In this document: in pieces, positions 12,925 to 31,435 of the stretch
Layout: every line of letters begins with the position of its first letter
Position numbering within the stretch: the first letter of the stretch is position 1
Assembly: GCA_030688545.1 (NCBI GenBank)
Contig: JAUYHT010000002.1
Location: 30,001-62,000 of the forward strand
DNA: 32,000 bases
DNA from: Candidatus Iainarchaeum sp.
Lineage (GTDB): Archaea > Iainarchaeota > Iainarchaeia > Iainarchaeales > VGJJ01
Reading direction: 5' to 3'
Made by a program: the position numbers and the translations under genes
Notes under the pieces: model-generated
Databases searched by the model: none
Told to the model about the DNA's origin: nothing
The model's input: only the letters and a program-made list of their open reading frames with translations

Positions 12925-13236
12925 AGGTGAGTCGCCGGCCGTAAGCGGCCTTCTGTTCTGTCCCCATTCGCCTAAGCGTCGTCGCGACTTGCACTCCTCC
13001 GGCGGGAACCCGTTTCAATGCGCGTGCCGGAACGTCCTCTCTTCGATTCATCCTGCCCGGCAGGGCAGACCGTTTCTGTGCTCCCGCGGCCGCTCCCGCA
13101 GCCGGACGGAGATTGACCGAGTGGGCCGACTTTCCTCAGCAGTCGTTCGCAAGAGAGGCTGACAGTCGGTGCCCCATCCTAGGGGCGGGAGGCCGACCTC
13201 TCCTATTGACCACCGTCGGGGGACCACCGGCGACTC
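12925..13236 (-). ncRNA. rnpB: RNase P RNA (archaeal type)
   Basis: The minus strand reads GAGTCGCCGG...CTGAGGAAAGTCGGCC (CR-I GAGGAAAGTC at 13128-13137)...GCACAGAAACGGTCTGCC...GGACAGAACAGAAGGCCGCTTACGGCCGGCGACTC. The 5' GAGTCGCCGG (13236-13227) and 3' CCGGCGACTC (12938-12929) form a perfect 10-bp P1 helix. Length is about 310 nt and the region is GC-rich. ORFs 12857-13051 and 12914-13162 are artefacts. Confidence 0.85.
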
Positions 13237-15777: not shown

Positions 15778-15789
15778 GTGTAAGAATTC

Positions 15790-18740
<2,951 letters not shown>

Positions 18741-18774
18741 GAATCTCTTACACTCACTTAAAATTTTGGGAACA

Positions 18775-21942: not shown

Positions 21943-22497
21943 TTAAGGGTTGGGAATCATGGGTTCACAAGATCCCCAGAATGTTATCGCGCAGAGTGTT
22001 TTTACCTTGGGAACATCTGGAGGGTCATCGTAAAAAGAAGGTGTTGGAAAACAAGATGGTCTTTGATTGTTACCTAATTCTACAAAAATGGGACAATCGG
22101 TTTGAGTGGAACAAAACTGGCTTGAGATATTGCGGACATCAGCGATTGCGGCATCACAATGAGCCTGGGAATCAGAGGGACAAGAAACGCCATAATGAAT
22201 ATCTTCGTTCACATGTGGCCAATTTATATTGGTTCCACAGGAATACGGAACCCTCCTACCTGTCTGGGGATCGGTACAAACTATTTGAAATTCTCCTTGC
22301 TCATTAAACTCCCCGTTACAAATGGGTTCACCAGGGGGATGAATATCGCTTTCTGTAGAACCCGTGGTTCGGACTCCCTGAATGGCAAGACCGGTATTAG
22401 GATTGTTGCCAATGAGGTAAATGGATATCACCAAAATAGCTACTAATGCTATTACCAATGAAAACTGGTCCATCGAAAGGGTTTGGAATTTAGGCAT
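21943..22497 (-). CDS. Hypothetical extracytoplasmic Cys-rich protein (10 Cys) with an N-terminal hydrophobic anchor or signal
   Basis: MPKFQTLSMDQFSLVIALVAILVISIYLIG, then a domain with 10 Cys. The N-terminus vaguely resembles a class III (pilin-type) signal, QxxSxDxF followed by a hydrophobic stretch, but it lacks Gly/Ala at position -1. Confidence 0.6.
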   Translation of the reverse strand: MPKFQTLSMDQFSLVIALVAILVISIYLIGNNPNTGLAIQGVRTTGSTESDIHPPGEPICNGEFNEQGEFQIVCTDPQTGRRVPYSCGTNINWPHVNEDIHYGVSCPSDSQAHCDAAIADVRNISSQFCSTQTDCPIFVELGNNQRPSCFPTPSFYDDPPDVPKVKTLCAITFWGSCEPMIPNP

Positions 22498-22829: not shown

Positions 22830-23438
22830 CTATTTGATTCCAAGGACATTGAGCTTGGGCAAATGTTCCTTGGGGAAATGACCGAAAATGATGAGCCAGG
22901 CGATGTACATGAAGATGGCCCAGAAGAATATCATAACTTGTCCCACCGAATCATGATGCAAGATCAAGGCCTCCGGAGAGAATTGCAATCCTACCAACAC
23001 GTCAGCCACAATGCGGAGGGTATTGCCTAAGAAGAGAAAGGGGACAAAGAGGAGCGACGCCACTCGGTGGGTCAATGGAAAAACCGGCATGAGGAATATG
23101 GTGAGGGGAAAAATGAGCATGAGCACCACGCCACTGCATTCCGCGGACACCTCCAGGGGTGGAAGACCCTCCACCACCAAATAATTTCCCCATGGAGCCG
23201 AAAACACCCCAATAAGGTTGAGGATAATGGCGGCCAACCAACTCGTGAGCTCGGGGAAAGGATAATAATAGGGAAATTCGAGCACCGCATAGGCTAAGAT
23301 GCCCCCCACCACAAGAAGGACAATGCCCCATTTGAGGATGTTTTTCCCCTGCTCCCTAAACGAAGATGTGGATGTGGCCGGCGTAGAGGTGTTTGGCTTG
23401 AGCGCCGCCGTTTGGGGGGTTGAATGATGTTGCATCAT
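22830..23438 (-). CDS. Archaeosortase/exosortase-family transpeptidase, short form (about 200 aa)
   Basis: Polytopic membrane protein with the family hallmarks in order: LEVSAECSGVVLM (Cys), LGNTLRIVADV (Arg), ILHHDSVGQVM (His). The ATG at 23438 overlaps the TGA of the upstream GT2 gene (ATGA). Confidence 0.8.
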   Translation of the reverse strand: MMQHHSTPQTAALKPNTSTPATSTSSFREQGKNILKWGIVLLVVGGILAYAVLEFPYYYPFPELTSWLAAIILNLIGVFSAPWGNYLVVEGLPPLEVSAECSGVVLMLIFPLTIFLMPVFPLTHRVASLLFVPFLFLGNTLRIVADVLVGLQFSPEALILHHDSVGQVMIFFWAIFMYIAWLIIFGHFPKEHLPKLNVLGIK

Positions 23439-24625
23439 CGGGTCCCCCAATGGGTATTCTTCATGGTGAGGAGGGCATAGATACGGGTGGGGATGAGAAG
23501 GAACACGTGGACTAATGCATACACGGGGAAGATAGTCAATCCCCAATCCCGGGTGCGGTAAATCCCATACATCCCCCGGATGAGGGCAATCCCAACGAGC
23601 ACGGCCAGATATCCTAACAAATAATACGGGCTAATCAGGGTAGAACGATAAATTGTGTAGCCTAAGGACAAAACGAGGAGCAAGGGCAGGATGAGCTGGA
23701 TGATCATGTCATAGATGATATAGGGATGGAGTTTCCTGGGGTGTCGAATCACCATCTTAATGGTCCACAATAGCTCGCGATAAAAACTCTTATTCCATCG
23801 CGTCTGCTGTTTGAGAAAACCTTGGATGGTTTGAGGGACATGGGTGAAAGCTACGGCGCGACGCTCGTAATGAACTTTGTAGCCTTTGTTCAGAATTAAA
23901 TTTGTCAGATGGCGGTCATCCCCATATGTGCATTTTTCTCCCAAGAAGACCTGGGAGATGTATTTCTCTTTCACATCATGGATGATGGAACTCCGATACG
24001 CCGCCAGGGGACCGGAGCAGCAGAGCACGGTGCCGAAAAGGCTTTGGGCGGCCCGCTCCTGATTGAACGCCGTCCAATACCTCCCATCAATAATCCGTGA
24101 AAGGATCTTCTTGGTCTTCACAACTTTCACATGACCGGTGGTGGCCCCCACTTGAGGGTCCTGAAAACGTTGAACCAGGTTGGCCACCGCATCCGGGAGT
24201 AATTGGGTGTCCGAATCAATGGTAACCAGTATTTCGGCATCGGAAGTCAAATGAATGATGTCAAACGCCTGCTTCTGGGCATGACGCTTTCCATTATTCT
24301 GGGGATTATGGACGAATCGAACGCGGGGGCTCCAGAGAAATTTTTTCCTAACTGCTAGAAAACCGGTTGGATCCTTGGAACCATCGTTCACCACGACAAT
24401 ATGGATGGAACCATTGTATTTCTGCTCCATGCATGATTGGACACAATTGGAAAGGGATTGGGGGTCCTCGTTATAGGTAGGGATGACGATGGATACGCTG
24501 GGAGTGAAGGAGGGATTGAAAGTGGATTTCAACGATCTCAGGTATTCAGCATGGGATAAATTAATCTGAACGAAGAGGTGGGTGAGGGCGAGAAGGCCGT
24601 AGATTGAAATGAGTTCTGCGATCAT
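23435..24625 (-). CDS. Processive family-2 glycosyltransferase, class I hyaluronan synthase / NodC / chitin synthase-like
   Basis: IVIPTYNED, VVVNDGS, NNGKRHAQKQAF, TIDSDT, ATGH, ERAAQSLFGTVLCCSGPLAAYR, YGDDRHLTN, LKQQTRWNKSFYRE and the C-terminal MKNTHWGTR. N- and C-terminal TM helices are present. From memory, this matches streptococcal HasA almost motif for motif. Confidence 0.88.
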   Translation of the reverse strand: MIAELISIYGLLALTHLFVQINLSHAEYLRSLKSTFNPSFTPSVSIVIPTYNEDPQSLSNCVQSCMEQKYNGSIHIVVVNDGSKDPTGFLAVRKKFLWSPRVRFVHNPQNNGKRHAQKQAFDIIHLTSDAEILVTIDSDTQLLPDAVANLVQRFQDPQVGATTGHVKVVKTKKILSRIIDGRYWTAFNQERAAQSLFGTVLCCSGPLAAYRSSIIHDVKEKYISQVFLGEKCTYGDDRHLTNLILNKGYKVHYERRAVAFTHVPQTIQGFLKQQTRWNKSFYRELLWTIKMVIRHPRKLHPYIIYDMIIQLILPLLLVLSLGYTIYRSTLISPYYLLGYLAVLVGIALIRGMYGIYRTRDWGLTIFPVYALVHVFLLIPTRIYALLTMKNTHWGTR

Positions 24626-24697: not shown

Positions 24698-25411
24698 CTA
24701 CAGTCCTTTTACGCGGCGTGTGTATAGGAAGAATCCACTTCCCAGCATGAGGGTAGCCAGCATTCCAGCCACGAGGGGGTGGATAGGCACTTTCAGGTCG
24801 CCCGACTCTGCCACGGGGGCATTGTCAGCGAAGGCACGAAACCATATTTCACCCGTCTGCATGATGGGACCTGGTTCCTGGTCGTCGCGGGTCACCGTGT
24901 AGGTGACTTGCGCGCTTTCCCCGGGAAGGATGATGCCAAACATATGGCTTCCATTCGTGTTCCCCTGGTTATTGGTGGGGGGACTCACTATCCAGGAATC
25001 GGGGGTATTGCGCAAATCCCCTCGCGTATTGAGGGAGGGAACATTGCCCACATTGGTTACGGTTACTTCCACCTGGAAAGTGTCTCCCGCATTGGCCGCG
25101 CTCCCGATGATCGACGCTTGGACCAGCAATAATGTCTGCTGGGCCGGCTGGGACTGCTGAACATCTCCCGTGATAGGGATGGGTTCGATGTCTGAAACTA
25201 TATCATTAGGCGCCGCATCCGAAATGGGATCAGCTATCTCATTTTCCTGGTCGGCTGCCTCTTCGGTTTCCTCAGCCAGTTCAAATGCATCCGTGTCGGA
25301 TATCTCATTGTCTTCCGGTCCAATAGAATCGGTAAACGCGTCCTGAGTCATTCCCCACACGACCGGGGCGCTCAATATGGCAATTAACGCCAAGACTACA
25401 GTGAATCGCAT
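24698..25411 (-). CDS. Secreted surface protein A with a C-terminal VPIHPLVA-TM-RR sorting signal (putative archaeosortase cargo)
   Basis: An aggagg site precedes the start. Signal peptide MRFTVVLALIAILSAPVVWG, an Asp/Glu-rich linker, then a CARDB-like beta-sandwich pattern (GDTFQVEVTVTNVGNV...GESAQVTYTVTRD). The tail is KVPIHPLVAGMLATLMLGSGFFLYTRRVKGL. Confidence 0.75.
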   Translation of the reverse strand: MRFTVVLALIAILSAPVVWGMTQDAFTDSIGPEDNEISDTDAFELAEETEEAADQENEIADPISDAAPNDIVSDIEPIPITGDVQQSQPAQQTLLLVQASIIGSAANAGDTFQVEVTVTNVGNVPSLNTRGDLRNTPDSWIVSPPTNNQGNTNGSHMFGIILPGESAQVTYTVTRDDQEPGPIMQTGEIWFRAFADNAPVAESGDLKVPIHPLVAGMLATLMLGSGFFLYTRRVKGL

Positions 25412-25560
25412 CGTTATCATCCTCCTGATGGTTAAAGTTTGCGTTAAACGGTATTCTTCGTCGCGTGCTTAAATACATGCTTTACGAAACCTTTATGCCA
25501 AGGTAGGGTTAACTTTTGTCCCTGAAAATGAATAGAAAACTTTATCTCTTGAGAAAAATA

Positions 25561-26103
25561 TTAGCTGGGACAATGTGATTGGCCTGTTTTTTCCAAATAC
25601 ATTTGATGATATTCCTCGGCCCGATAGAAGACTGAAGCCGGTTCGATGGTCGTCGTGATGGGAAGGGGGTATTTTTTTGAAGCGATTTCCTGTTTTATTG
25701 ACTTTTCAGCCGTCGCCAGTTGCGCTTGGGAATGATAGAAAATGACACTCCGGTATTGGCTCCCCCTGTCAGGACCTTGCCGGTTTCCCTGGGTGGGATC
25801 ATGGATGTCCCAGAATACGCGCAAGAGGGCATCATATGAGACTTTTTTAGGGTCGAATGACAAGTGGCACACCTCCACATGCCCGGTTTTTCCCGAGCAT
25901 ACTTGGGCATACGTCGGGTGAGCCTTTGTTCCCCCCATAAAACCAACCGTCGTATCCACTACGCCATTCACCCGGCGGAAGGATTGTTCCACCCCCCAAA
26001 AACAGCCGGCCCCGAAGGTGGCTAATTCGAACTTACCTGGGATGGGTAGTGGAGTCACGCCTACTCCAAATACGTTCCACTCTATAAAAATAGGTGCCGG
26101 CAC
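25561..26103 (-). CDS. msrA: Peptide methionine-S-sulfoxide reductase
   Basis: GAGCFWGVE active site, [19 protein letters not shown] and YHQMYL. GTG start as listed; the true start is uncertain. Confidence 0.92.
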
Positions 26104-26269: not shown

Positions 26270-26965
26270 TCAGCTTACCTGTTTCCGGCGCAAATACACC
26301 CCGTACCCGCCCAGCATCGAACCCACGAGGGCGAATGCCACGAGCGGATGGATAGGGACCCTCAACGCATTAGAAGTGGCCTTATTGGTATTATCTCCTT
26401 TCGCTTCGAAAACGAGGGTTGAATCTTCGGCGTCGCGGGTGATAGTATAAATGAATTCACGACTATCTCCTGACGGCAAATCGCCGAAATCCGCCATCTT
26501 ATCGGCCGGTGTCACTTGCCACCCTTCTGGTACGAACATGAGTTCGCCCATCACATTTTCAGCGGTCACCATCCCCACGTTGGAAATGATAGCTTTCACC
26601 TTGAAGGTGTCGCCCTCTTCCTGGTAGGGGCCATCAATGAACAGATGGGCAATCAACAACGTCCTTCCATTGTCTTTCATCGTATTGATGAGAATTAAGT
26701 TTTTTACCAGTACTTGCTGGGTCGATTTAAGGACTACTCTTTCCTGCAGTCCGTCATCACTATTGATGAAGACCTGTTTAGCATTGCCTACTGACGTTTC
26801 ATGATCCACCTGGACTGTCACGGATTGAGTTTCCCCTTCCACGGAAGCATGGTTCTGGTTGTCCACGCTCGCTTCCGAAGAAGAATCCATGGACGTCCCA
26901 TCGGCCCACGCGGGGGACCCCAGTAGGAACAATGACGCCACGGCCAGGACTAAAAGATTCTTCAT
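26270..26965 (-). CDS. Secreted surface protein B with a C-terminal VPIHPLVA-TM-RR sorting signal (paralog of 24698-25411)
   Basis: taggaggtga lies 4 nt before the ATG at 26965. Signal peptide MKNLLVLAVASLFLLGSPAWA, then a CARDB-like segment (GDTFKVKAIISNVGMV...GDSREFIYTITRD). The tail is RVPIHPLVAFALVGSMLGGYGVYLRRKQVS. Confidence 0.75.
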   Translation of the reverse strand: MKNLLVLAVASLFLLGSPAWADGTSMDSSSEASVDNQNHASVEGETQSVTVQVDHETSVGNAKQVFINSDDGLQERVVLKSTQQVLVKNLILINTMKDNGRTLLIAHLFIDGPYQEEGDTFKVKAIISNVGMVTAENVMGELMFVPEGWQVTPADKMADFGDLPSGDSREFIYTITRDAEDSTLVFEAKGDNTNKATSNALRVPIHPLVAFALVGSMLGGYGVYLRRKQVS

Positions 26966-27176
26966 TGATTCACCTCCTAAGTTGAATATCCACACACCCC
27001 ACGGCCTGCGGCATTATTATTCATACTTTCTGACACTTTACGGGTTTTTTCTAATGCAGCAAGATATGTTCGAAACTTGACAGGAGTGTCTGTAATTAAT
27101 TAAAATAAGTGATGAAATGTCCATTCCCTGACATGACGGAAGATTATATGAAAAAGCGCTGGAATATTTTTCCCGC

Positions 27177-30112: not shown

Positions 30113-31435
30113 ATGCGGAAAACCATTGTGGAGAGGATGCCGGGGGCCCACCTCACCAAAATCATCTCCTGCCTGGACGAAAACCAAAAGGGCTTGCTCA
30201 AAGAAAGCCCCCACTCGGTGATTGTTGCCGATATGGAAGGGCATGTGGTGGCCTGCAATGCGGGGGCCGGGGACTTATTTGGGTATACGAAAACAGAGAT
30301 GATTGGCACCCATGTCAAAGTTTTCCATCCCCCCCAAAATTATGCCCGGATCCTCCCTGAATTGTTTCGCACGGCCCTGCAGAAAGGAATTTATGATCAG
30401 ATTATTACCCTCCAGAAGAAAGACCACCAACCCTTTCTCGCCCGCATCATCGTTACGCGCATCCTCGGAACGGATGGAAAGCCCATTGCCCTCATGGGGG
30501 TTACCTCGCCCGCCCAAAAAGCCCCCTCTATTGGTTTTATCGCCACTTGGATTAGGGCCCTCCGCGCGCCTTTCTTCACGGCAACCCTCATCCCTATTTT
30601 TTTAGGAACCGCCATTGCCTTCTCCGCTACGGGAACATTTTCATTCTGGCCATTCTTCTGGACGGTATGGGGCATGCTCTTCATCCACGCGGGAGTAAAC
30701 TTAGCCAATGATTATTTCGACCATCAAACAGGGAATGATGAATTGAATCCGCACCCCACGCCCTTCAGTGGGGGCAGCCGGGTGATTCAGGAAGGATTGG
30801 TGGCTCCGAATACGATAAGGAATGTCGCCCTCCTCTGCCTCGCCGTTGGATCCCTCATCGGATTATATCTCAATTCCCTTGTCCCGGGGAACCTCATCCT
30901 GGTTTTAGGGGTTTTGGGAGTGGGTATCGGATTCTTCTATAGCAGCCCACCCCTCGCGGCGAGCTACAAACGATTGGGGGAATTATGTGTCGCTTTAGGA
31001 TTCGGGCCCCTCATTGTATTAGGCAGCTATGTCGTCCAAACACAATCCTTTTCCATTATCCCCTTGGTGGCCTCCATCCCCATCGCTTTGCTCATCGTTG
31101 GGGTCCTATTCCTCAACCAGTTCCCCGATTTTGAGGCTGATGTGAAATCACAGAAGCGAAACCTGTTGAACACTTGGGGCAAACCCACGGGGGTCAAACT
31201 CCTCACCTATGGAGTGGCGGCTGTTTTCATATTCACGGGAGCAGGGGTCATATCTGGATTATTTCCCCCGCTCGCGGGACTTACATTACTGGCGCTCCCC
31301 TTCGCCTACGCCATGCTCACCACGCTCCGCACCCACTATGATCAGGTGCTCGAATTGCTCCCCGCCAACGCCAATATGATCAAATTGCATTTTACCTATG
31401 GATTGCTTTTTACTATTGCTTTCCTGGTGGGATGA
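30113..31435 (+). CDS. menA: PAS domain fused to a 1,4-dihydroxy-2-naphthoate polyprenyltransferase-like UbiA-family enzyme
   Basis: Residues about 25-135 form a PAS fold (SPHSVIVADMEGHVVACNAGAGDLFGYTKTEMIG...KDHQPFLARIIVTRILGTDGKPIALMGV). The remainder is a polytopic UbiA enzyme with MenA-type motifs NLANDYFDHQTGND and NQFPDFEADVKSQKRN. Confidence 0.82.
   Translation: MRKTIVERMPGAHLTKIISCLDENQKGLLKESPHSVIVADMEGHVVACNAGAGDLFGYTKTEMIGTHVKVFHPPQNYARILPELFRTALQKGIYDQIITLQKKDHQPFLARIIVTRILGTDGKPIALMGVTSPAQKAPSIGFIATWIRALRAPFFTATLIPIFLGTAIAFSATGTFSFWPFFWTVWGMLFIHAGVNLANDYFDHQTGNDELNPHPTPFSGGSRVIQEGLVAPNTIRNVALLCLAVGSLIGLYLNSLVPGNLILVLGVLGVGIGFFYSSPPLAASYKRLGELCVALGFGPLIVLGSYVVQTQSFSIIPLVASIPIALLIVGVLFLNQFPDFEADVKSQKRNLLNTWGKPTGVKLLTYGVAAVFIFTGAGVISGLFPPLAGLTLLALPFAYAMLTTLRTHYDQVLELLPANANMIKLHFTYGLLFTIAFLVG

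What the first reader, a model, noticed from the sequence alone, without database searches (positions are those of the whole stretch)
24698..24829. Apparently unnamed C-terminal sorting signal (K/R)VPIHPLVA + TM + RR, present twice
The two tails are KVPIHPLVAGMLATLMLGSGFFLYTRRVKGL (24698-24829) and RVPIHPLVAFALVGSMLGGYGVYLRRKQVS (26270-26400). They share an invariant VPIHPLVA motif, a Gly-rich hydrophobic helix and a basic stop-transfer cluster, which is the architecture of PGF-, PEF-, PIP-, VPXXXP- and PEP-CTERM signals. The Pro spacing (VPxxP) fits none of those named motifs as I remember them. That suggests a new cargo class matched to the adjacent short sortase.
Basis: partly seen in the sequence, partly recalled or inferred. 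Interest (0 to 1): 0.7.

Follow-up and report, generated by a model that had tools for sequence, protein, structure and literature searches.

The report
Unnamed archaeal sortase signal with sugar-polymer synthase
Two small surface proteins of a DPANN archaeon end in a proline-containing membrane tail that matches no named sorting signal. The tail always sits beside a miniature archaeosortase and a chitin-synthase-like enzyme, so this looks like an undescribed three-gene system for fixing a protein to the cell surface.

Summary
Two paralogous secreted proteins (24698-25411 and 26270-26965) end in (K/R)VPIHPLVA, a hydrophobic helix and an RR/RRK cluster.

No named C-terminal sorting model in NCBIfam release 20 reaches its cutoff on either tail or on relatives' tails. 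The adjacent 202-aa enzyme passes only the generic exosortase/archaeosortase signature, not any named subfamily. Its Cys/Arg/His triad is invariant.

A NodC/chitin-synthase-like GT2 lies between cargo and sortase, and its stop codon overlaps the sortase start (ATGA).

- **Conservation:** the trio cargo + GT2 + mini-sortase recurs in more than 20 distinct loci. These come from Diapherotrites, Thermoplasmatota and unassigned archaeal contigs. Every cargo-first and sortase-first look-up with enough flanking DNA showed it.
- **Motif:** across 42 cargo clusters (≤50% identity) the signature is Φ-P-Φ-x-(P). The first Pro is present in 42/42 and the second in 22/42, and His is not conserved. VPIHP is therefore a clade-specific form.
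- **Cargo type:** the tail nearly always follows one NEW3/CARDB-like Ig domain. This is a dedicated system, not a broad cargo class.

The closest analogue is the bacterial XrtG/Firmicu-CTERM/GT2 system. Cleavage and the acceptor are inferred, not shown.

The parts
24698..25411 (-). Cargo 1. It has a signal peptide, an acidic linker of about 65 aa, a NEW3/CARDB-like Ig domain and the C-terminal tail. It is 237 aa from NCBI's start (the ORF extends to 25420).
   Evidence: ORF and translation. Identical to P0001, annotated 'hypothetical protein, Candidatus Diapherotrites archaeon'. AF2 gives a beta-sandwich followed by a C-terminal helix. Fold matches are to CARDB and other Ig-like domains. Pfam DUF11/NEW3/CARDB hits are sub-threshold.
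24698..24793 (-). Tail of cargo 1: K-VPIHPLVA (motif 24767-24790), the hydrophobic helix GMLATLMLGSGFFLY, then T-RR-VKGL and the stop codon.
   Evidence: The AF2 helix starts at the second Pro of the motif, so the motif abuts the helix without a spacer.
26270..26965 (-). Cargo 2, a paralog with a signal peptide, a Ser/Glu/Asn/Val-rich N-terminal region, the Ig domain and the tail. It is 231 aa from the ATG (the ORF from GTG extends to 26995).
   Evidence: It is 37% identical to cargo 1 over the Ig domain plus tail. It equals P0019. The Pfam NEW3 hit scores 19.8 bits, below the cutoff.
26270..26362 (-). Tail of cargo 2: R-VPIHPLVA (motif 26336-26359), the helix FALVGSMLGGYGVYL, then RRK-QVS and the stop codon.
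23435..24625 (-). Processive family-2 glycosyltransferase of the NodC/chitin-synthase type, 396 aa. It has one N-terminal and three C-terminal hydrophobic segments.
   Evidence: Pfam Glycos_transf_2 96.5 bits and Chitin_synth_2 60.9 bits, both above cutoff. The best NCBIfam match is NodC at 317 bits, below the 550 cutoff. Motifs DSD137, GDDR235, QQTRW273 and a C-terminal WGTR393 are present. It lies adjacent to the sortase in 25 of 26 metagenome loci and in all protein look-ups that reach that far.
22830..23438 (-). Mini-archaeosortase, 202 aa, with Cys101/Arg142/His162. Its start codon overlaps the GT2 stop codon (ATGA at 23435-23438).
   Evidence: TIGR04178 scores 37 bits against a cutoff of 23. 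No named subfamily reaches its cutoff: ArtE 28.5/95, XrtG 22.9/102.75, XrtX 21.6/170. The triad is invariant in 14 homologues down to 35% identity. Overlap. Helices.

Best explanation
This is a dedicated archaeosortase system made of three co-transcribed genes.

**Proposed mechanism.**
1. The small Ig-like proteins are exported through Sec by their N-terminal signal peptide.
2. They are held temporarily in the membrane by the C-terminal helix, with the basic cluster on the cytoplasmic side.
3. The proline signature (Φ-P-Φ-x-P, here VPIHP) sits exactly at the outer end of that helix.
4. The neighbouring 4-5-helix mini-archaeosortase recognises this signature and cuts there with its Cys-Arg-His centre.
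5. It passes the protein's new C-terminus to an acceptor, so the protein stays on the cell surface without its original helix.

The sortase gene is translationally coupled to a NodC/chitin-synthase-like processive glycosyltransferase in every locus. The protein's destination or function is therefore tied to that enzyme's GlcNAc-type polymer. Either the protein is anchored (to lipid, as with ArtA) beside the polymer and binds it, or it is joined to the polymer itself.

**Shown:** the tail architecture, the lack of any named model, the enzyme family and its invariant triad, the GT2 type, and the conserved three-gene neighbourhood.

**Inferred:** that the sortase cleaves this tail, where it cleaves, and what the acceptor is.
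For: - **Tripartite tail.** It is at the very C-terminus and the motif abuts the helix without a spacer. PEP-, PGF- and GlyGly-CTERM signals, which are cut by membrane-embedded enzymes, are built the same way (Haft 2023, 10.1101/2023.06.07.544157).
- **Family-wide conservation.** In 42 clusters at ≤50% identity: Pro 42/42, flanking I/V/L 39/42 and 42/42, 14-20 uncharged residues, at least 2 K/R in 40/42, and an N-terminal h-region in 37/41.
- **Enzyme.** It passes the exosortase/archaeosortase signature. SxECSG, NxxR and HxxxGQ are invariant in 14 homologues at 35-57% identity.
- **Cargo-first co-occurrence.** Look-ups gave L001, L010, L011/12, L013, L014/15, L016/17 and L018. All show GT2 plus sortase next to the cargo, or GT2 cut by the contig end.
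- **Sortase-first co-occurrence.** Look-ups gave L004, L006, L007 and L009 with tailed cargo. The metagenome scan gave GT2 in 25/26 loci and tailed cargo in 21/26, and the exceptions are explained by contig ends.
- **Two gene orders.** Both cargo-GT2-sortase and GT2-sortase-cargo keep the trio together.
- **L044.** The gene in the cargo position has a signal peptide and the tail NIPVPINPLVGIGF..., but an ectodomain the cargo HMM does not recognise. Only the tail aligns. The tail is what is kept.
- **Gene overlap.** The ATGA overlap of GT2 and sortase points to co-expression.
- **Accepted standard.** Haft's published criteria accept regular adjacency of enzyme and target as the evidence for dedicated systems.
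- **Domain relatives.** Giant DUF11-repeat proteins with a related domain carry other signals, such as LPXTG-like ones.
Against: - There is no biochemical evidence of cleavage.
- With one exception (L044), the tail is always attached to the same Ig-like domain in a gapless register that extends upstream (N at -11, S at -5). It could therefore simply be the conserved end of one protein family.
- The invariant information is small: one Pro flanked by aliphatic residues. A Pro at the start of a membrane helix is common.
- Whole-genome presence/absence profiling could not be done, because only loci were available, not genomes.
- The side of the membrane on which Cys101 lies is inferred from secondary structure only.
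- The link to a GlcNAc polymer rests on GT2 family resemblance. The NodC equivalog cutoff is not met.
- A polysaccharide deacetylase that could create an amine acceptor is nearby in only one locus family.
Confidence: 0.65

Rival explanations
1. The Ig-like protein is a permanent, helix-anchored accessory subunit of the glycan synthase. This would resemble BcsB, whose single C-terminal helix packs against cellulose synthase BcsA. On this view the conserved Pro motif is only the junction between ectodomain and anchor. The sortase-like protein would act on something else, or serve as a non-proteolytic partner.
For: The tail is almost never separated from the Ig domain, and the conserved block runs continuously from the last strands into the helix. 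Only one residue is strictly invariant. The best fold matches include TRAP-beta, an Ig-like domain with a permanent C-terminal membrane helix. The trio is always together with a membrane-embedded processive GT2.
Against: The Cys/Arg/His triad of the sortase is invariant across 35-57% identity, which argues for a working enzyme that needs a substrate, and no other candidate substrate is conserved nearby. In L044 the ectodomain is replaced but the tail is kept. The tripartite layout with an Arg/Lys cluster and a Pro motif abutting the helix is the hallmark of exosortase-family substrates.
Confidence: 0.2
2. The tails are a divergent form of an already named signal (PIP-CTERM/ArtD, VPXXXP-CTERM/ArtB, PEP-CTERM or Loki-CTERM), and the sortase is a divergent member of a named subfamily such as ArtE.
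For: Many distant relatives read IPIP(I/V), which contains 'PIP'. Named exosortase-family signals also start with V/I-P (VPEP, VPXXXP, VPLPA, IPTL; from my own knowledge). The best named match for the sortase is ArtE. One distant tail comes within 1 bit of IPTL-CTERM and 0.2 bit of PEP-CTERM.
Against: No tail, of about 20 tested whole or isolated, reaches any curated cutoff. The near-misses align only the helix and the Arg cluster, starting after the motif. No sortase of the module, of 7 tested, exceeds 41 bits against subfamily cutoffs of 86-425.
Confidence: 0.08
3. The resemblance is trivial. Two paralogs share a C-terminal membrane anchor by descent, and the neighbouring sortase is there by coincidence.
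For: The two window proteins are paralogs. Eight identical residues in a row is only mildly improbable at 37% identity.
Against: The trio is conserved in more than 20 distinct loci, in two gene orders and in at least two archaeal phyla. The motif Pro is kept in 42/42 clusters.
Confidence: 0.03

Closest known systems
XrtG / Firmicu-CTERM / XrtG-associated GT2 system of Gram-positive bacteria (TIGR03110, TIGR03111; described as a 'complete Exosortase G system' in PMC12854382)
   Same: Both are dedicated systems. Each has a short exosortase-family enzyme (model length 187 aa), a neighbouring family-2 glycosyltransferase, and a single adjacent target protein with a C-terminal tripartite sorting domain.
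   Different: This one is archaeal. The enzyme scores 22.9 bits against the XrtG cutoff of 102.75. The GT2 scores 72 bits against the TIGR03111 cutoff of 364 and is instead of the NodC/chitin-synthase type. The tails give no hit to any Firmicutes signal model. The cargo is an Ig-like NEW3/CARDB-type domain.
ArtA / PGF-CTERM (Haloferax volcanii archaeosortase A)
   Same: It belongs to the same enzyme superfamily with the same Cys/Arg/His triad. The substrate has a signal peptide plus a Pro-containing motif abutting a C-terminal helix and a basic cluster. ArtA removes the helix and the protein becomes lipid-anchored (PMC6098224).
   Different: ArtA serves one to dozens of unrelated substrates per genome. 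It is larger and is not coupled to a glycosyltransferase gene. The PGF-CTERM model does not match these tails in any meaningful way: 6 bits against a cutoff of 24.5, and that hit lies at the N-terminus.
ArtE (TIGR04124), a short archaeosortase family protein
   Same: It is the best-scoring named subfamily for most module enzymes and is of similar size (model length 153 aa).
   Different: Scores are 21-41 bits against a cutoff of 95. I could not retrieve a description of ArtE's cognate signal, because Haft 2012 is not held.
VPXXXP-CTERM / ArtB and PIP-CTERM / ArtD
   Same: The signals start with V/I-P and contain a second Pro a few residues on. Many distant relatives here read IPIP.
   Different: The Pro spacing here is P-x-x-P, and the second Pro is dispensable (22/42). 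Neither signal model reports a hit. ArtB scores 9-23 bits against a cutoff of 150, and ArtD 13-22 bits against 125.
JDVT-CTERM / MrtJ and other dedicated one-enzyme-one-target sorting pairs (Haft 2023)
   Same: There is one target per genome, and it is adjacent to and co-operonic with its membrane-embedded processing enzyme. The evidence is of the same conserved-neighbourhood kind.
   Different: The enzyme family is unrelated (CPBP/Rce1-like), and the motif there has an invariant Cys. No glycosyltransferase partner is described in the passages read.

Membership tests
Exosortase/archaeosortase superfamily | Matches the signature domain model TIGR04178 above its curated cutoff | tested here: met
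   37.0-37.5 bits against a cutoff of 23 for the window enzyme. Six homologues from other loci score 37-48 bits.
Exosortase/archaeosortase superfamily | Conserved Cys, Arg and His (the putative catalytic triad) | tested here: met
   C101, R142 and H162 are invariant in 10 close homologues and in 14 homologues down to 35% identity.
Exosortase/archaeosortase superfamily | Polytopic membrane protein | tested here: met
   Five hydrophobic segments. AF2 gives helices 26-53, 62-75, 102-116, 122-152 and 165-185.
Named archaeosortase/exosortase subfamilies (ArtB-F, heimdallarchaeosortase, XrtB, D, F, G, H, M-S, V, W, X, CrtA) | Score at or above the subfamily's curated cutoff | tested here: not met
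   The best score is ArtE at 28.5-29.1 against 95. All others are lower. The same holds for six homologues. ArtA never appears in the hit lists.
Tripartite C-terminal sorting signal (criteria of Haft 2023) | 1. [quoted passage not shown] | tested here: met
   The motif lies 29-30 residues from the stop codon in both window proteins. The same holds in the relatives.
Tripartite C-terminal sorting signal (criteria of Haft 2023) | 2. [quoted passage not shown] | tested here: inconclusive
   There are two in this window. Only one is seen per locus elsewhere within ±6-10 kb. Whole genomes were not available.
Tripartite C-terminal sorting signal (criteria of Haft 2023) | 3. [quoted passage not shown] | tested here: inconclusive
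   V-P-I-H-P is invariant within the close clade. Family-wide, only Pro is invariant (42/42). Its neighbours are restricted to I/V/L (39/42 and 42/42), and the second Pro is present in 22/42.
Tripartite C-terminal sorting signal (criteria of Haft 2023) | 4-5. A hydrophobic helix followed by a cluster of basic residues | tested here: met
   14-20 uncharged residues follow the motif, and 40/42 have at least 2 K/R. AF2 gives a helix from the second Pro.
Tripartite C-terminal sorting signal (criteria of Haft 2023) | 6. N-terminal signal peptide on most members | tested here: met
   An h-region heuristic finds one in 37/41 full-length members. Some of the rest are fragments. No dedicated signal-peptide predictor was available.
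Tripartite C-terminal sorting signal (criteria of Haft 2023) | 7. Many pairs of carriers that share nothing but the signal | tested here: not met
   All carriers share the same Ig-like domain except one, L044. N-terminal additions do vary: an acidic linker in cargo 1 and a DNRLRE domain in P0069.
Tripartite C-terminal sorting signal (criteria of Haft 2023) | 8. Homologues elsewhere that lack the signal or carry a different one | tested here: met
   Giant DUF11-type repeat proteins hit by the same profile end in LPXTG-like or other tails, or in none.
Tripartite C-terminal sorting signal (criteria of Haft 2023) | Dedicated-system alternative to criteria 2, 7 and 8: enzyme and target regularly encoded by consecutive or nearby genes | tested here: met
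   More than 20 distinct loci. All cargo-first look-ups qualify, and so do 21/26 sortase-first loci, with the exceptions lying at contig ends.
Named CTERM signals (PGF, PEF, PIP, VPXXXP, PEP, IPTL, Loki, LPXTG, JDVT and others in NCBIfam r20) | Score at or above the model's curated cutoff | tested here: not met
   Window tails: the best hit is LPXTG at 14.3 against 15.9, covering the helix only. Relatives: the best hits are IPTL 19.5/20.5, PEP 15.8/16 and Loki 17.2/19.9, all starting after the motif.
XrtG system | XrtG enzyme, TIGR03111 glycosyltransferase and a Firmicu-CTERM target, each matching its model | tested here: not met
   XrtG 22.9/102.75 and TIGR03111 72.4/363.95, with no Firmicu-CTERM hit. 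Only the three-part layout is shared.
NodC / chitin-synthase-type GT2 | Pfam Chitin_synth_2 and Glycos_transf_2 above cutoff, plus the motifs DxD, (E/D)DR, QxxRW and WGT(R/K) | tested here: met
   60.9 bits against 27 and 96.5 bits against 23.3. DSD137, GDDR235, QQTRW273 and WGTR393 are present. That these motifs define the group is from my own knowledge.
NodC (equivalog TIGR04242) | Score at or above the equivalog cutoff | tested here: not met
   317 bits against a cutoff of 550. The L016 homologue scores 312 bits. The product (chain length, sugar) therefore remains unknown.

The most novel reading that the evidence does not exclude
The mini-archaeosortase does not hand the protein to a lipid. 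Instead it joins the protein's new C-terminus covalently to the GlcNAc-type polymer made by the coupled chitin-synthase-like enzyme, or uses the protein to cap or prime that polymer. This would be an archaeal counterpart of sortase attaching proteins to peptidoglycan. It would also be direct evidence of a chitin-like surface polymer in DPANN and Thermoplasmatota archaea.
Probability: 0.15. Interest if true: 0.85.

Novelty: new variant of a known kind. Interest (0 to 1): 0.6.

Why it matters
Archaeosortases are known mainly from ArtA of haloarchaea, and most short family members have no assigned substrate. This finding supplies three things:

- an unnamed enzyme subfamily with an obvious, testable substrate next door
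- a new flavour of proline-based C-terminal signal
- a strict genetic link between an archaeosortase and a chitin-synthase-like polymerase, in lineages (DPANN, Thermoplasmatota) whose cell envelopes are almost unstudied

It gives annotators three new family models to build. It gives experimentalists a minimal three-gene cassette for asking what acceptor an exosortase-family enzyme uses, which is still unresolved even for ArtA and the exosortases. It also suggests that some archaea make a GlcNAc polymer.

Tried and rejected
- **Plus-strand reading.** Translating the stated intervals on the + strand gives nonsense.
- **Tail-only search of the 5.8-billion-protein collection.** With 45 columns, only 8 candidates shared words and none scored E ≤ 10. 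The exact tail is therefore rare, but the search was too insensitive to find unrelated carriers.
- **First sortase scans.** The GTDB genome scan with the narrow alignment gave only one genome. The first metagenome scan gave nothing. A more diverse alignment was needed.
- **PDB searches for the sortase.** Sequence and fold searches found no relative, so there is no structural template for its topology.
- **Haft et al. 2012 (PMC3256604).** The paper is not held. Statements about ArtB-E signals rest on NCBIfam model names and my own memory.
- **Chitosan-amine acceptor.** A polysaccharide deacetylase and GlmM/GlmU-like genes flank the module only in the L016/L017/L024 locus. I rejected this as general support.
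- **TRAP-beta as top fold hit.** I treat it as a generic resemblance between Ig-like domains with a C-terminal helix, not as homology.
- **Other C-terminally anchored proteins.** L001 7687-8382 and L004 11685-12398 have tails (...GIEPIWLVVG...) that lack the Φ-P-Φ register, and they are not part of the module.
- **Motif form versus sortase clade.** Inspection shows no clean relationship between the presence of the second Pro and the sortase clade.
Full report
**1. The observation**

The stated intervals translate to nonsense on the + strand. The features are on the minus strand.

- ORF 24698-25420(-) ends ...GDLKVPIHPLVAGMLATLMLGSGFFLYTRRVKGL.
- ORF 26270-26995(-) ends ...NALRVPIHPLVAFALVGSMLGGYGVYLRRKQVS.
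- Public annotation starts them at 25411 (237 aa, P0001) and 26965 (231 aa, P0019).
- A six-frame scan finds VP.HP near a C-terminus only in these two ORFs.
- Both have an N-terminal signal-peptide-like segment and a single C-terminal hydrophobic segment that begins at the motif.
- The source is a 418,565-bp contig of a 'Candidatus Diapherotrites archaeon' MAG, a DPANN archaeon.

The two proteins are paralogs, 37% identical over their last 142 residues. Taken alone, the shared octapeptide is therefore only weak evidence.

**2. The cargo proteins**

An AlphaFold model of the last 150 residues of cargo 1 has a mean pLDDT of 75.7. It is an eight-strand beta-sandwich followed directly by a helix that starts at the second Pro of VPIHP. 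The motif therefore abuts the helix with no spacer.

Fold matches are to generic Ig-like domains, including CARDB, FnIII-like domains of glycosidases and TRAP-beta. Pfam hits to DUF11, NEW3 and CARDB are sub-threshold for the window proteins. NEW3/NPCBM_assoc passes its cutoff for a relative, P0029 (33.8 bits against 24.4).

Close orthologues (P0002-P0008, about 165 aa) are simply signal peptide, this domain and EVPIHP(V/I/L)VGGLL...SRKK.

**3.

I scanned NCBIfam release 20 (June 2026) with several query sets:

- the full window proteins
- the isolated window tails
- a full-length cargo and three isolated tails from related loci
- four distant full-length cargo proteins
- eight isolated distant tails

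No named C-terminal sorting model reaches its cutoff. The nearest misses are LPXTG 14.3/15.9, IPTL 19.5/20.5, PEP-CTERM 15.8/16 and Loki-CTERM 17.2/19.9. They align only the helix and the basic cluster, beginning after the motif.

The neighbouring enzyme (22830-23438, 202 aa, P0009) passes only the generic exosortase/archaeosortase signature TIGR04178 (37 bits against 23). Every named subfamily is far below cutoff: ArtE 28.5/95, XrtG 22.9/102.75, XrtX 21.6/170, ArtB 9.4/150. Six homologues from other loci behave the same way.

**4. The enzyme**

- Ten close homologues and fourteen homologues down to 35% identity keep SxECSG (Cys101), NxxR (Arg142) and HxxxGQ (His162) invariant. This is the Cys/Arg/His set proposed as the catalytic triad of this family.
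- Hydropathy gives five hydrophobic segments.
- AF2 (pLDDT 75.6) gives a long helix 26-53, a short helix 62-75, a beta-hairpin 80-89, a helix starting right after Cys101, a long helix carrying Arg142, a short helix carrying His162, and a last helix 165-185.
- From this I infer, without coordinates, that helix 62-75 and the hairpin lie outside the cell and that the triad sits near the outer leaflet. That is where the cargo motif would be.
- No solved structure resembles it by sequence or by fold.

**5. The missing third partner**

Between cargo 1 and the sortase lies a 396-aa family-2 glycosyltransferase (23435-24625).

- Pfam Glycos_transf_2 (96.5 bits) and Chitin_synth_2 (60.9 bits) both pass their cutoffs.
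- The best NCBIfam match is NodC at 317 bits, below the equivalog cutoff of 550.
- It carries DSD, GDDR, QQTRW and a C-terminal WGTR. From my own knowledge, these are the hallmark motifs of NodC, chitin synthases and hyaluronan synthases.
- Its stop codon overlaps the sortase start codon (cgATGAtg), which suggests translational coupling.

**6.

Cargo-first look-ups:

| Query | Locus | Result |
|---|---|---|
| P0005 | L001 | cargo-GT2-sortase |
| P0004 | L010 | cargo-GT2, cut by contig end |

A profile of domain plus tail, searched against 1.84 billion representatives, found 233 relatives. About 45 of the best 150 are small proteins of 92-340 aa whose match runs to a helix-plus-basic C-terminus. 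I looked up six of these distant ones, and all six sit in the same trio:

| Query | Locus | Gene order and notes |
|---|---|---|
| P0042 | L011/L012 | cargo-GT2-sortase |
| P0069 | L013 | GT2-sortase-cargo |
| P0170 | L014/L015 | GT2-sortase-cargo; a Thermoplasmatota MAG |
| P0128 | L016/L017 | GT2-sortase-cargo |
| P0029 | L018 | cargo-GT2-sortase |

Sortase-first look-ups gave L004, L006, L007 and L009. Each has GT2 and a tailed cargo.

A metagenome scan with a diverse sortase alignment returned 26 loci. My own HMM scan of their ORFs gave these results:

- GT2 is adjacent in 25 of 26. The exception is a contig that begins at the sortase.
- A tailed cargo is adjacent in 21 of 26.
- Of the five without a cargo hit, L026, L033 and L041 end within about 120 bases of the sortase, and L045 is a fragment.
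- L044 has, in the cargo position, a 148-aa protein with a signal peptide and the tail NIPVPINPLVGIGFALFAFAKLY. The cargo HMM does not recognise its ectodomain, and only HMM positions 115-136 (the tail) align.

After removing duplicates, this is more than 20 distinct loci, in two gene orders and in at least two phyla. I found no counter-example. Whole-genome absence could not be tested.

**7. What the signature really is**

Aligned on the motif, 42 non-redundant cargo proteins fall into a gapless register:

| Position | Residue | Count |
|---|---|---|
| -11 | Asn | 40/42 |
| -5 | Ser | 39/42 |
| 1 | I/V/L | 39/42 |
| 2 | Pro | 42/42 |
| 3 | I/V/L | 42/42 |
| 4 | variable | H 11, S 10, F 8, N 6 |
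| 5 | Pro | 22/42 (otherwise L, W...) |

After the motif come 14-20 uncharged residues, and 40/42 have at least 2 K/R.

In loci with the second clade of close sortases, the tails read KVPVSP, KVPVNP and KVPVEP. P0020, a close cargo-1 relative, reads VPVSP. VPIHPLVA is therefore a lineage-specific form of Φ-P-Φ-x-(P), and His is not part of the signature. Many distant members read IPIP(I/V). Named exosortase-family signals also start with V/I-P (my own knowledge), which fits recognition by an enzyme of this family.

**8. Judging it as a sorting signal**

Haft's published criteria apply as follows.

- Met: C-terminal location, helix, basic cluster, signal peptide, and homologues with other signals. 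LPXTG-like tails occur on giant DUF11-repeat relatives.
- Partly met: the 'three invariant residues' criterion.
- Not met: 'many carriers sharing only the signal', apart from L044.

The same paper states that for dedicated systems, regular adjacency of enzyme and target replaces those criteria. That adjacency is met strongly here. Within ±6-10 kb, each other locus holds one cargo. This window is unusual in holding two, of two sub-types. Cargo 2 resembles the cargo of the second sortase clade (...KATSxxxKVP).

**9. Mechanism**

- Best supported (0.65): Sec export, transient anchoring by the C-terminal helix, cleavage at the Φ-P-Φ motif by the mini-archaeosortase, and transfer to an acceptor. 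The whole process is functionally tied to the GlcNAc-type polymer of the coupled GT2.
- By analogy with ArtA, the acceptor would be a membrane lipid.
- The more novel possibility is attachment to the polymer itself (about 0.15).
- The main rival (0.2) is a permanent BcsB-like anchored subunit of the synthase.
- Nothing here demonstrates cleavage.

**10. Comparison with known systems and novelty**

The closest described system is the XrtG system of Firmicutes, which consists of a Firmicu-CTERM protein, XrtG and XrtG-associated glycosyltransferases (PMC12854382). The layout is the same. Membership fails on every model: XrtG 22.9/102.75, TIGR03111 72/364, and no signal hit.

Full-text searches found no paper that joins 'chitin synthase' with exosortase or archaeosortase. 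They found nothing on such a system in DPANN, and no recent paper on a new archaeosortase subfamily.

I therefore rate it a new variant of a known kind. It comprises an unnamed archaeosortase subfamily, an unnamed proline signal, and an obligatory chitin-synthase-like partner.

Noticed in passing
window 15779-18750 (-): A complete archaeal 23S rRNA gene (2488 bits). Rfam found no 16S or 5S rRNA anywhere in the 32-kb window, so the rRNA genes appear to be unlinked.
   Followed up: no
window 12929-13175 (-): An archaeal RNase P RNA that only just passes the gathering score (84.9 against 84). It spans 247 nt against a 288-position model, so it may be a reduced RNase P RNA.
   Followed up: no
window 30113-31435 (+): A 440-aa protein that fuses an N-terminal PAS domain to a UbiA-family prenyltransferase, which is an unusual sensor-enzyme fusion.
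   Followed up: no
window 25561-26103 (-); also L001 7174-7665, L004 11189-11650, L018 9014-9496, L027 2252-2788: A methionine sulfoxide reductase (MsrA) gene lies within a few kb of the module in five loci. One of them is a distant clade (L027). In the window it separates the two cargo genes. This could be lineage synteny or a functional link; it is untested.
   Followed up: partly
L044 1035-1481 (+): The protein in the cargo position has a signal peptide and the VPINP tail, but an Asn/Asp-rich ectodomain that is not Ig-like. Its basic cluster is reduced to a single Lys (…FAKLY).
   Followed up: partly
L007 30-326 (+): The C-terminal part of a second mini-sortase lies just upstream of the cargo-GT2-sortase cassette. 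That organism may therefore carry tandem modules.
   Followed up: no
L014 1859-3598, 6869-11405; L015 2633-7169: In the Thermoplasmatota loci the module is flanked by large secreted cysteine peptidases (C11+PKD, C1+lectin-like, C25). None of them carries the tail.
   Followed up: partly
L016 3212-5675 and 10271-12370 (same in L017, L024): In this one locus family the module is embedded among GlmU-like and other sugar nucleotidyltransferases, a phosphohexomutase and a polysaccharide deacetylase. This fits a GlcNAc/GlcN polymer, but it is not seen elsewhere.
   Followed up: yes
window 25210-25350 (-), cargo 1 residues about 25-90: Cargo 1 has an acidic, low-complexity insert of about 65 aa between the signal peptide and the Ig domain. 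The insert is absent from all 165-aa orthologues. P0069 instead carries a DNRLRE domain there (46.6 bits against 34).
   Followed up: partly
window 21943-22497 (-): A 184-aa Cys-rich protein with an N-terminal membrane or signal segment lies just downstream of the sortase, beyond tRNA-Ala. It matches no family, and its position is not conserved in other loci.
   Followed up: partly
L001 7687-8382 (-), L004 11685-12398 (-): A conserved protein of about 235 aa lies near the module in two Diapherotrites-like loci. It has a different C-terminal helix tail (…GIEPIWLVVGVLALGFGAFFAMKK) with no Φ-P-Φ register and no family hit.
   Followed up: partly
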